64,000 bases of DNA, from the NCBI RefSeq assembly GCF_056712565.1, contig NZ_CM160072.1, one strand, 5' to 3'. Numbering within the stretch: position 1 is the stretch's first letter; each line of letters opens with the position of its first letter. The position numbers are program-made. Below, one piece after another: positions 6,001 to 9,000 of the stretch.

Positions 6001-9000
6001 TTCCATTAATAAGACAGAATAATGTAAACGAAGCCGGATGATATTAACGATCATCCGGCATTATTGACTTACGAAACTAACATCCCGGTAAACACATACG
6101 CCTGCAACAGCGTGATAATGCCGATAACGCTGGCAAAAATCAGACTGTGCTTCACGGTGTAGCGGAACAGTTCAGATTCTCGCCCCACCATGCCCGTCGC
6201 GGCGCAGGCCACGGCGATAGATTGCGGGGAGATCATCTTGCCAGTTACGCCGCCGCTGGTGTTTGCTGCCACCAGCAGGGTGTCAGAGACGTTGATTTGC
6301 TGCGCCGTGGTCGATTGCAGTGAACCAAACAGGGCGTTAGAGGAGGTGTCCGAGCCGGTAAGGAATACGCCCAGCCAGCCGAGAAACGGTGAGAAAAACG
6401 GGAACATCACGCCTGTACCTGCCAGTACCAGCGCCAGCGTGGTGGACATACCGGAATAGTTGGTGACGAAGGCGAACGCCAGCACCATGCCAATCGACAA
6501 TATCGGCCACTTCAGACTAATTAGCGTTTCGGCAAAGACGCCAATCCCTTTCTTGATGCCCACGCCGAGGATGAAGATAGAGATAATCGCCGCAATAAAA
6601 ATAGCGGTGCCGCCAGCCGAGAGAGGGTCGAATTTAAACACCGCGTCCATTGGCGTTGGTTGGGCGACAATGGGTGCCGCTTTCAACACTTGTTGATGCA
6701 AATGAGGGATCTGGAAATTAATCACCAGTGAATAAAACGCGCCGCCCGGAGCAAATAACGCTTTAAACGGCTTCATGGTCCAGATGGTGACCAGCACCGT
6801 TAAGATTAAAAACGGTGACCACGCACGAATGATTTGCCCCAGACTATATTCTGAAGGCACGGGACCGCCAGAAGATGGTTTATTCACCACCATCGCACCT
6901 GCGGATTGTCCCATGCTGATTGCCGTTTCGGTATTTTTCGGCCGCCAGACTTTAAGGAATAAAGCGAGTGAGACGATACTCACCAGCGCCGAAGTAATAT
7001 CCGGCAGTTCCGGACCAATATAGTTAGAGGTAAAGAACTGAGTGACAGCGAAGCTTCCCCCTGCAACCAGCGCCGCTGGCCACGTCTCTTTCACCCCTTT
7101 CCAGCCGTCCATCATTGCTACCAGCCAGAACGGCACAAGAACCGACAGGAACGGTAACTGACGTCCCGCCATTGCGCCAATGTGGAACGGATCGATTCCC
7201 GTTACCTGACCGGCGACCAGAATCGGCACGCCCAACGCACCAAACGCCACCGGCGCAGTGTTGGCAATCAGACACAGCCCCGCCGCGTATAGCGGTTTGA
7301 AGCCCAGGCCCACCAGTAGAGCACCGGTAATCGCCACCGGTGCGCCAAAGCCAGCCGCCCCTTCCAGCAGCGCACCAAAGGAGAAACCAATCAGTAACAC
7401 CTGCAAACGCTGATCGTCGGTGATGGAGATAACCGAGCTGCGGATAATATCGAACTGGCCGCTGGCAACGGTTAATTTATACAGGAATACCGCCGCGACA
7501 ATAATCCACGCAATAGGCCATAAACCATAAATAAAGCCATAGCCCGCAGCAGCAAATGCCATATCAATCGGCATTTTAAAGGCGAATATCGCAATCAGAA
7601 TAGATAATATAAGGGTTATTGCTCCAGCGACATGTCCTTTCAGACGTAATACCGCGAGTGCAACGAAGAAGAATATTATTGGGATCAGGGCGACCAGAGC
7701 GGATAGCCCCAGTCCTCCCATCGGCATATACATTTGGGTCCAGGTAACCATATTGTTCAGTCTCTTATTATCTTTATATGCTTGATATACTTAAGGTTGT
7801 AATAAGCAAAAGAGGACTGAACTGTAAAATATAGGCGTTATACTTTACAGCAACAGTACGCCGCTAACGCAATTGCTACCTCTGGTATAACAAGTATATC
7901 GGGTAAGGGTTTCTGTTCCGCACACGCAGGCGCAGAGTATCGTTAAGATGTCCATATTGTTGTTTTAATCCCGCTAGTGATGCGCTACGGGTATTTAATA
8001 TTGTTAACCCCTGATAATCGCTCCGGTTATTTCCGGGATAAATGTACTACCGCAGTTACTATCATAGCCCCGACAATAAATCTTGCCGGGGCTTTTTTTG
8101 ACGCTATTAATGATTTTCTTTTTCGCGTAAACGCCATGCGTGTAATAACGGTTCGGTATAGCCGTTTGGCTGTTTCACGCCGAGGAAGATCAAATCGCAG
8201 GCAGCTTTAAAAGCACACGAGTTAGCGAAATTCTCCACCATTGGACGATAAGCCGGATCGCCAGCGTTTTGCTGATCAACCACTTTCGCCATATTCTCCA
8301 GCGACGCCTGCACCTGATCTTTGGTCAGAATACCGTGACGTAACCAGTTGGCGATATGCTGGCTGGAAATACGCAGCGTTGCGCGGTCTTCCATCAACGC
8401 CACGTTGTGAATATCCGGCACTTTTGAACAACCAATCCCCTGCTCCACCCAACGCACCACGTACCCCAGAATCCCCTGCACGTTGTTATCCAGCTCTTGT
8501 TGGATCTCTTGCGCCGACCAGTTAGCGTTTTCAGCAACCGGAATAGTCAGCAGATCGTCCAGCAGCGGTTCAAATTCAGCATTGAACTCGGTCTGGGCAA
8601 TGTTGGCTTGCACGCTCTGTACGTTGGTTTGGTGGTAGTGCAGCGCATGGAGCGTAGCGGCAGTTGGCGACGGAACCCAGGCCGTGTTTGCCCCGGCACG
8701 CAATTGGTCGCCCTTCTGGCTGTACATGTCTGCCATCAGGTCCGGCATTGCCCACATGCCTTTACCGATTTGCGCTTTTCCACGTAGCCCACAGAACAGA
8801 CCGGAAAGCACGTTATTACGTTCGTAGGCTTTGATCCACGGCGTCGATTTCATCTGGTTTTTACGCAGCATCGGGCCCGCTTCCATCACCGAATGCATTT
8901 CATCGCCGGTACGGTCGAGGAAACCGGTATTGATGAACGCCACGCGGTTGCGCGCCTGAGCGATACAGCTACGCAAGTTCAGCGAGGTCCGGCGTTCTTC

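What the first reader, a model, noticed from the sequence alone, without database searches (positions are those of the whole stretch)
8066..8099. Orphan +-strand intrinsic terminator in the glcB-glcA spacer, opposite to operon direction
A GC stem (gccccg/cggggc) followed by seven T residues is a good rho-independent terminator on the + strand, yet both flanking genes are on the - strand and nothing annotated is transcribed rightward here. It could terminate an antisense or small RNA originating within or upstream of glcA, or be a relic. On the - strand it reads as A-tract then hairpin, so it would not terminate glcB transcripts efficiently, consistent with glcB-glcA co-transcription.
Basis: seen in the sequence. 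Interest (0 to 1): 0.3.

Follow-up and report, generated by a model that had tools for sequence, protein, structure and literature searches.

The report
Shared terminator hairpin of glcB and C0719
The "orphan" terminator is real, but it lies just after the known E. coli small-RNA candidate C0719, and the same hairpin also marks a published 3' end of glcB mRNA on the other strand, so it is an ordinary, largely documented feature.

Summary
An 11-nt inverted repeat lies at 8066-8076/8083-8093, with one A.C mismatch and a 6-nt loop, followed by T7 at 8093-8099 on the + strand. Chance would give about 0.5 such sites in the whole window.

It is not orphan. Rfam RF00117 (C0719 sRNA candidate, + strand) matches 7830-8051 at 291 bits and ends 15 nt before the stem. 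C0719 has no terminator of its own.

Hairpin and T-run are kept in E. coli, E. albertii, an unnamed taxon (88-89% GlcB identity) and Raoultella.

Published Term-seq (Adams 2021, K-12, LB OD 2.0) maps a 3' end on the glcB strand 4-5 nt after this hairpin. It lists no + strand 3' end here.

Best reading: one hairpin sits between convergent glcB and C0719. It acts as an intrinsic terminator rightward (inferred) and forms the glcB 3' end leftward (shown). This is already known in substance, so interest is low.

Side observation: the 355-bp spacer is far more conserved than glcB synonymous sites, and it folds better on the glc-mRNA strand.

The parts
8066..8076 (+). 5' arm of the hairpin (AGCCCCGACAA)
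8077..8082 (+). loop (TAAATC; TAAAAC in K-12)
8083..8093 (+). 3' arm of the hairpin (TTGCCGGGGCT); A8073 opposite C8086 is a mismatch on the + strand and a G.U pair on the - strand
8093..8099 (+). T7 run, the U-tract of the + strand terminator. It is T6 in K-12 and T5-T7 in the other taxa.
7830..8051 (+). C0719 sRNA candidate (Rfam RF00117, full-length match, 291 bits). The transcript that this terminator most plausibly ends.
8062..8062 (-). Position equivalent to the Term-seq 3' end at MG1655 3121590 (-), classed 'primary' for glcB. It lies 4-5 nt after the hairpin on the glc mRNA strand.
   Evidence: coordinate mapping
8107..10278 (-). glcB (malate synthase G); its stop codon lies 8 nt from the A-run/T-run
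6069..7751 (-). glcA (glycolate permease), 355 bp downstream of glcB on the same strand
7783..7791 (+). Candidate extended -10 element TGaTATACT for a rightward promoter. It is kept in Escherichia and one of the two unnamed-taxon contigs (TATACC in the other) and is TGgTATGCT in Raoultella. Unverified.
7825..7830 (+). Alternative candidate -10 (TAAAAT) just before the Rfam C0719 start. Unverified.

Best explanation
A single conserved hairpin sits between two convergent transcription units and is used on both strands. Rightward (+), hairpin plus U5-7 acts as a canonical Rho-independent terminator. It ends transcripts that start in the AT-rich region upstream of glcA and cover the C0719 region, giving an RNA of roughly 260-300 nt rather than the 222 nt in Rfam. 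It also keeps that antisense transcription out of glcB. Leftward (-), the same sequence forms an even more stable hairpin 8 nt after the glcB stop codon, with no U-tract behind it. It therefore lets part of the transcription continue to glcA, and it defines a glcB-terminated mRNA 3' end 4-5 nt after the stem. That end could arise by weak termination or, more likely, by 3' exonuclease trimming back to the stem. Shown: the structure, its conservation, the Rfam match and the minus-strand 3' end in K-12. Inferred: that + strand transcripts actually end at the T-run, and where they start. Not established: any regulatory role of C0719, for example pairing with the complementary glcB-glcA spacer RNA.
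For: Terminator shape and stability. Rarity by chance. The C0719 model match ends 15 nt upstream and is not followed by a U-run of its own. C0719 is listed as a 222-nt + strand RNA, low in abundance and up 3.5-7.4 fold in transition and stationary phase. Hairpin and T-run are kept in E. coli (T6/T7), E. albertii (T5), the unnamed taxon (88-89% GlcB identity; T7) and Raoultella (CT5ATT), while much of the surrounding spacer diverges in Raoultella. The sequence after the hairpin on the - strand is never U-rich. In E. albertii two stem changes give G.U on the + strand, which would be A.C on the - strand. About 4,540 of 5,426 E. coli genomes carry the hairpin as a single copy. Minus-strand 3' end at 3121590. 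The minus-strand hairpin folds to -21.3 kcal/mol (z -4.7) and is followed by CUAUGAUAGU. Stem pair 8073/8086 is G.U, G-C or U.G on the - strand in all taxa.
Against: I found no + strand 3' end near K-12 3121621-3121627 in the curated Term-seq lists for three conditions. I also found no TSS or full-length transcript entry for this locus in the supplements I could search. C0719 is weakly expressed. It is absent from the current RefSeq annotation of MG1655. Overexpression gave no biofilm or motility phenotype. No consensus promoter was found on the + strand. Folding z-scores of the spacer favour the - strand RNA in all six taxa.
Confidence: 0.55

Rival explanations
1. The hairpin is a glc-mRNA element only. 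It is selected solely as a minus-strand RNA structure: a 3'-end stabiliser or partial stop after glcB that sets the glcB:glcA ratio within a structured intercistronic leader. Rightward transcription is negligible, and the T-run is not used as a terminator.
For: The only mapped 3' end is on the - strand. The - strand hairpin is more stable (-21.3 vs -16.7 kcal/mol). Pair 8073/8086 stays pairable only on the - strand. The whole spacer folds better than shuffles on the - strand in all six taxa (z -2.9 to -7.1, against -1.1 to -3.5 on the + strand). The consensus fold is -71.3 kcal/mol on the - strand and -55.1 on the + strand. C0719 is weakly expressed and was dropped from RefSeq.
Against: This does not explain why a run of 5-7 A directly 5' of the hairpin, which is the + strand U-tract, is kept in all four lineages including Raoultella. 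Array- and RNA-seq-based reports of a + strand RNA exist. E. albertii stem changes favour the + strand. GU/AC tallies differ only mildly between strands.
Confidence: 0.25
2. The terminator is an insulator against pervasive antisense transcription. Rightward termination is real, but the RNA has no function of its own. The terminator only stops spurious transcripts, started in the AT-rich glcA upstream region, from running head-on into glcB.
For: Only weak, non-consensus promoter candidates were found. Abundance is low. Overexpression gave no phenotype.
Against: The C0719 body is conserved far above synonymous sites: 94.9% vs 70.1% to E. albertii, and 76-78% vs 50-52% to the unnamed taxon. That conservation could, however, be owed to the - strand RNA. 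A transposon insertion at the site had a phenotype in a group II intron screen.
Confidence: 0.15
3. The feature is a relic of a decayed gene's terminator, a chance palindrome, or a copy of a repeated extragenic element (REP/BIME-like).
For: None beyond the lack of a RefSeq feature here.
Against: Chance expectation is about 0.5 per 128 kb of strand. The feature is conserved across lineages whose synonymous sites are near saturation. It occurs as a median of 1 copy per E. coli genome, at most 2.
Confidence: 0.03

Closest known systems
C0719 RNA (Rfam RF00117; Tjaden et al. 2002 candidate sRNA between yghK/glcA and glcB; origin cited from my own knowledge)
   Same: Same locus and strand. The window matches the full 222-nt model at 291 bits, as do K-12 and E. 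albertii. The unnamed taxon matches more weakly.
   Different: The hairpin and T-run lie outside the model, 15-48 nt beyond its 3' end. The link between terminator and C0719 is my inference. C0719 has no established function, and MG1655 RefSeq no longer lists it.
Bidirectional intrinsic terminators between convergent genes (Ju et al. 2019, SEnd-seq; cited from my own knowledge, since the paper could not be opened)
   Same: One hairpin lies between two converging transcription units. A 3' end is mapped on one strand and a canonical terminator shape lies on the other.
   Different: The classical cases have an A-tract and a U-tract flanking the stem, so both directions see a U-run. Here only the + direction does. 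One partner is an antisense RNA inside an operon, and transcription on the other strand must partly continue to glcA.
GadY and the gadX-gadW intercistronic region (cis-antisense sRNA opposite an operon spacer; my own knowledge)
   Same: A small RNA is encoded opposite the spacer between two co-oriented genes, ends at its own intrinsic terminator and is fully complementary to the intercistronic mRNA.
   Different: For GadY, processing of the mRNA is demonstrated. For C0719, nothing of the kind has been tested.
Intercistronic stem-loops that protect the upstream mRNA segment from 3' exonucleases, and stem-loop-stabilised ends of Rho-terminated transcripts (Dar and Sorek 2018, PMC6061677)
   Same: A 3' end lies a few nucleotides after a stable stem with no U-tract, directly after an ORF inside an operon.
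   Different: The origin of the glcB 3' end (termination or processing) is unknown. No Rho termination region is listed here in Adams et al. supplementary file 2, which covers LB OD 0.5 only.
Spot 42 (Rfam RF00021)
   Same: The 3' hairpin GCCCC...GGGGCUUUUUUU resembles the Spot 42 terminator.
   Different: The match scores 21.5 bits against a gathering score of 80 (E 0.33), with many non-canonical pairs. It is not a member.

Membership tests
Rho-independent (intrinsic) terminator, + strand | G+C-rich stem-loop | tested here: met
   10 of 11 positions pair, with six G-C pairs and a 6-nt loop. The fold is -13.3 to -16.7 kcal/mol, z -4.3.
Rho-independent (intrinsic) terminator, + strand | U-tract directly 3' of the stem | tested here: met
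   T7 at 8093-8099. The run is T5-T7 in all related taxa.
Rho-independent (intrinsic) terminator, + strand | Lies at the end of a transcription unit on that strand | tested here: inconclusive
   The Rfam C0719 match ends 15 nt upstream, and RNA-seq lists a weak + strand RNA. I could not retrieve any TSS data for this locus.
Rho-independent (intrinsic) terminator, + strand | RNA 3' ends map in the U-tract | tested here: not met
   The curated Term-seq lists for LB OD 0.4, LB OD 2.0 and M63 hold no + strand 3' end at K-12 31216xx. The lists keep only dominant peaks and C0719 is weakly expressed, so absence is weak evidence.
Rho-independent (intrinsic) terminator, - strand | U-tract directly 3' of the stem | tested here: not met
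   The stem is followed by CUAUGAUAGUAAC in E. coli and by similarly U-poor sequence in the other taxa.
Rho-independent (intrinsic) terminator, - strand | RNA 3' ends map just after the stem | tested here: met
   3' end at MG1655 3121590 (-), 4-5 nt after the stem, LB OD 2.0.
Rfam RF00117 C0719 | Covariance-model score above the gathering threshold (50 bits) | tested here: met
   291.2 bits for 7830-8051 (+). The hairpin itself (8066-8099) is outside the model.
Bidirectional terminator | Convergent transcription units with 3' ends on both strands at one hairpin | tested here: inconclusive
   The - strand 3' end is shown. A + strand 3' end was not found in the data I could reach.
Bidirectional terminator | A-tract and U-tract flanking the stem, so each strand reads a U-run | tested here: not met
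   Only the + strand reads a U-run.
Hfq-type sRNA 3' module | Terminator hairpin with a long U tail, and Hfq binding | not testable with these tools
   The sequence has U6-U7. I found no Hfq-binding data for C0719.
REP/BIME or other repeated extragenic palindrome | Many copies per genome | tested here: not met
   Median 1 place per genome, at most 2.

The most novel reading that the evidence does not exclude
The 355-nt glcB-glcA spacer may be primarily a conserved, structured cis-regulatory RNA on the glc mRNA strand. On that reading the hairpin is a processing or termination checkpoint after glcB. A downstream helix that sequesters the glcA Shine-Dalgarno sequence, and possibly a short upstream ORF, would control glcA expression. 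The long-listed 'C0719 sRNA' would then be either its antisense regulator or largely a strand-misattributed shadow of this element.
Probability: 0.2. Interest if true: 0.45.

Novelty: already known. Interest (0 to 1): 0.17.

Why it matters
It matters little beyond annotation. The result gives C0719 a plausible true 3' end: the T-run at 8093-8099, which is K-12 3121621-3121626. That makes the RNA about 45 nt longer than the Rfam and EcoCyc entry. It also shows that the same hairpin is the mapped 3' end of glcB mRNA. A scan that flags 'orphan' terminators should therefore check Rfam and published 3'-end maps on both strands first. The modest open point is why this operon-internal spacer is conserved far above synonymous sites, and which strand's RNA is responsible.

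Tried and rejected
I used these later only as a contrast set.
- The searches for + strand 3' ends or TSSs in supplements led nowhere. The TERMITe, SMRT-Cappable-seq and Cappable-seq files had no entries for this locus.
- Four papers had no supplementary files held as text.
- Thomason 2015 and Ju 2019 are not held. Supplement look-ups are now exhausted.
- The Spot 42 resemblance is rejected: 21.5 bits against a gathering score of 80.
- REP or another mobile repeat is rejected because the element is single-copy.
- A 19-codon + strand ORF (8043-8102) runs through the hairpin. I rejected it because the T6/T7 length polymorphism shifts its frame.
- The 77-aa ORF 7977-8210 (+) overlaps glcB antisense and runs through the terminator, so I treated it as chance.
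- I tried E. albertii glcA decay as a natural test of function independent of glcA. The truncation is strain-specific, so the test is uninformative.
- The strand test by GU/AC tallies on the two consensus structures was only mildly asymmetric: 57 GU and 5 AC on the - strand, 65 GU and 13 AC on the + strand.

Full report
**What is in the sequence**

The window is E. coli. The spacer is 100% identical to strain ATCC 11775. glcA lies at 6069-7751 (-) and glcB at 8107-10278 (-), separated by a 355-bp spacer.

The repeat finder gives arms 8066-8076 and 8083-8093, 11 nt, 91% complementary, with a 6-nt loop.

As + strand RNA the region folds to -16.7 kcal/mol, z -4.3 against shuffles. The tool's simple terminator scan missed it. 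I attribute that to the single A.C mismatch, which interrupts the stem.

I wrote a scan for T>=6 preceded by a hairpin of <= -13 kcal/mol. It finds 4 sites in the window, against 0.53 +/- 0.74 in 40 dinucleotide shuffles.

**It is not orphan**

Rfam RF00117 (C0719 RNA) matches 7830-8051 on the + strand over its full 222 positions at 291 bits. That is 15 nt upstream of the stem. The sequence between the match and the stem contains no U-run, so this hairpin is the first terminator a C0719 transcript would meet.

From my own knowledge, C0719 is one of the array-derived sRNA candidates of Tjaden et al. 2002, whose boundaries came from probe signals.

What the literature I could read says about C0719:
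- It is listed as a 222-nt + strand RNA at U00096.2 3119380-3119601. It is weakly expressed and rises 3.5- to 7.4-fold in transition and stationary phase (PMC4676190).
- It has been lost in phylogroup E and some Shigella lineages (PMC3318445).
- A transposon insertion at the site lowered group II intron retrohoming (PMC3636086).
- Overexpression gave no biofilm or motility phenotype (PMC4606813).

RefSeq lists no feature in the spacer, including in MG1655.

**The other strand**

On the - strand the same sequence forms a more stable hairpin of -21.3 kcal/mol, because the A.C mismatch becomes a G.U pair. It starts 8 nt after the glcB stop codon and is followed by CUAUGAUAGU, which is not a U-tract.

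Supplementary file 1 of Adams et al. 2021 (PMC7815308) lists a Term-seq 3' end at MG1655 3121590 on the minus strand. It is classed 'primary' for glcB and 'antisense' to C0719. The entry is in the LB OD600 ~2.0 sheet, with an average read count of 47,630.

I mapped the printed sequence onto the window. The 3' end falls 4-5 nt after the stem, at window 8062. I checked the register against the pheV entry in the same table.

The same curated lists (three conditions) hold no + strand 3' end at 31215xx or 31216xx, and the Rho-region table has no entry here. So the hairpin demonstrably marks a glcB mRNA 3' end.

It does not show how much transcription reads through to glcA. The literature treats glcA as part of glcDEFGBA.

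**Conservation**

GlcB is patchy among enterics: E. coli, E. albertii (96%), an unnamed taxon at 88-89%, Raoultella planticola (80%), and then Pseudomonas at 68%. I fetched the glcB-glcA loci for these taxa.

All keep a 331-398-bp spacer with the hairpin directly followed, in the window's + orientation, by a T-run:

| Taxon | T-run |
|---|---|
| This window | T7 |
| K-12 | T6 |
| E. albertii | T5 |
| Unnamed taxon | T7 |
| Raoultella | CT5ATT |

The sequence after the hairpin on the glc strand is U-poor in all of them.

Stem changes are mixed in their strand preference:
- Pair 8073/8086 is G.U, G-C or U.G on the - strand. On the + strand it is A.C, G-C or C.A.
- E. albertii carries two changes that give G.U on the + strand and A.C on the - strand.

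Both hairpins stay workable, as expected if both strands use the structure.

Within E. coli, about 4,540 of 5,426 complete genomes carry the hairpin once each:
- 409 genomes have exactly this window's allele.
- 2,677 have exactly the K-12 allele.
- 1,442 differ from the K-12 allele at one position. All three listed rows of this class span 51 nt against the 50-nt query, and the one I read has T7.
- One genome has the 3' arm and T-run deleted.

C0719 is detected by the covariance model in K-12, E. albertii and the unnamed taxon, but not in Raoultella.

As a contrast, I examined 80 distant glcB loci. Of the 24 with a canonical terminator within 150 nt downstream, 18 had it in the sense direction only, 3 in both directions and 3 in the antisense direction only. 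The antisense-only orientation seen here is therefore unusual for glcB. It fits the presence of a co-oriented downstream gene and a convergent RNA.

**Most likely mechanism**

One hairpin is shared by convergent units.

Rightward, it acts as an ordinary intrinsic terminator for transcripts covering C0719. That would make the RNA about 260-300 nt, depending on the start, and it would insulate glcB from antisense transcription.

Candidate promoters are weak and unverified:
- An extended -10 element, TGaTATACT, at 7783-7791. It is kept in Escherichia and one of the two unnamed-taxon contigs (TATACC in the other) and is TGgTATGCT in Raoultella.
- TAAAAT at 7825-7830.

Leftward, the hairpin lacks a U-tract. 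It therefore permits read-through to glcA, while glcB-terminated transcripts end 4-5 nt after the stem. That spacing is typical of exonuclease trimming to a stem (Dar and Sorek 2018) or of weak termination.

The - strand 3' end is shown. Termination on the + strand is inferred from shape, position and conservation of the T-run. I put this reading at 0.55.

The main rival (0.25) is that only the glc-mRNA hairpin is selected and rightward transcription is negligible. That fits the Term-seq asymmetry but leaves the conserved A/T-run unexplained.

A second rival (0.15) accepts rightward termination but sees the RNA as functionless pervasive antisense. Relic, chance or a repeat element is effectively excluded.

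**A side observation worth recording**

The spacer is much more conserved than neutral sites in the neighbouring gene:

| Comparison with this window | Spacer identity | glcB four-fold sites |
|---|---|---|
| K-12 | 98.0% | 89.9% |
| E. albertii | 94.9% | 70.1% |
| Unnamed taxon | 76-78% | 50-52% |

Three blocks persist even in Raoultella:
- the glcA start region;
- a core at about 7900-7975;
- the CTACCGCA...TAG, hairpin and T-run block.

The spacer RNA folds better than shuffles on the glc-mRNA strand in all six taxa. The z-scores are -2.9 to -7.1 on the - strand, against -1.1 to -3.5 on the + strand. Consensus folds agree, at -71.3 vs -55.1 kcal/mol. A GU/AC tally is only mildly asymmetric.

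On that strand a helix (7815-7822 with 7755-7762, extended) pairs with the glcA Shine-Dalgarno region. It is present in Escherichia and one contig of the unnamed taxon and absent from the other contig's predicted fold and from Raoultella.

A short ORF starting at 7955 (-) has a partly conserved N-terminus: MDILTILC, MDDLTILC and MDILISFC. This comes from my reading. It has no clear Shine-Dalgarno sequence and was not tested.

The conservation may therefore owe more to a structured glcA leader than to C0719. That is the most novel reading left open, and I give it about 0.2.

**Verdict**

The feature is real, conserved and very probably functional. In substance it is already described: the C0719 locus dates from 2002 and is in Rfam, and the glcB 3' end is in a 2021 dataset. 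The only new element is assigning this terminator as the likely true 3' end of C0719 and recognising that both strands use the hairpin. Interest is low.

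Noticed in passing
window 7752-8106: The glcB-glcA spacer is far more conserved than glcB four-fold degenerate sites: 98.0 vs 89.9% to K-12, 94.9 vs 70.1% to E. albertii, and 76-78 vs 50-52% to an unnamed taxon with 88-89% GlcB identity. Three blocks persist even in Raoultella.
   Followed up: partly
window 7752-8106, - strand: The spacer RNA folds better than shuffles on the glc-mRNA strand than on the C0719 strand in all six taxa (z -2.9 to -7.1 vs -1.1 to -3.5). Consensus folds are -71.3 vs -55.1 kcal/mol. The conserved structured RNA may be the mRNA spacer rather than C0719.
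   Followed up: partly
window 7755-7767 with 7809-7822, - strand: A helix GUUCAGUC(CUCUU)/(AAGA)GACUGAAC pairs the glcA Shine-Dalgarno region, 4 nt before the AUG, with an upstream segment. It is present in the E. coli and E. albertii sequences folded and in one contig of the unnamed taxon, and is absent from the other contig's predicted fold and from Raoultella. It is a possible translational control of glcA.
   Followed up: partly
window 7955..7845, - strand: A 36-codon ORF (MDILTILCACVCG...) lies upstream of glcA on the glc strand. Its first ~12 codons are similar in the unnamed taxon (MDDLTILCTFV..) and in Raoultella ((MKN)MDILISFCAFVC*). It has no clear Shine-Dalgarno sequence, and a 2-nt indel shifts the frame further on. 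It may be a leader peptide, or the conservation may be at nucleotide level only.
   Followed up: no
window 7822-7850: A 12-bp hairpin (CTGTAAAATATA/TATACTTTACAG) spans the annotated 5' end of C0719 (7830). Its variable positions stay paired as G.U/U.G on the - strand in the unnamed taxon, but would be mismatches on the + strand.
   Followed up: partly
L089 1490-1545 (E. coli AST217, NZ_AP043630.1): A natural variant in which the 3' arm of the hairpin and the T-run (cggggctttttt) are deleted, leaving glcB and glcA intact. It could serve as a ready-made mutant.
   Followed up: no
window 8093-8099; L001 3622-3627; L088 438-444: The T-run length is polymorphic in E. coli. T6 with the K-12 loop occurs in 2,677 genomes. 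This window's T7 allele occurs in 409. The K-12 loop with one difference occurs in 1,442; all three listed rows of this class carry a 1-nt insertion, and the one I read has T7.
   Followed up: partly
L084 5179-5260 (Raoultella planticola): Raoultella has a second hairpin (GCGCCAT-AG-ATGGCGC) between the glcB stop codon and the conserved hairpin, and no detectable C0719 model match.
   Followed up: no
glcB, window 8107-10278: GlcB has a patchy distribution among enterics: Escherichia (96-100%), an unnamed taxon (88-89%) and Raoultella (80%), then a jump to Pseudomonas at 68%. This hints at a restricted or horizontally shaped history of the glc locus.
   Followed up: no
window 52332-52373 and 44224-44230: Overlapping terminator-like hairpins on both strands at 52332-52373 (-16.3 and -17.7 kcal/mol, with a T-run on each side) form a textbook bidirectional terminator. 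There is also a strong - strand terminator at 44224-44230 (-17.9 kcal/mol).
   Followed up: no
window 49967-50030 (+) and 33300-33376 (both strands): Rfam gathering-level matches to ES173 sRNA (99 bits) and to naRNA4/CssrE (90.5 and 60.4 bits).
   Followed up: no
literature, C0719 locus: A mariner insertion at C0719 reduced group II intron retrohoming, and top-strand synthesis fell to 17% in extracts (PMC3636086). An insertion here would also disrupt the glcB-glcA spacer mRNA, so the phenotype cannot be assigned to either strand.
   Followed up: no
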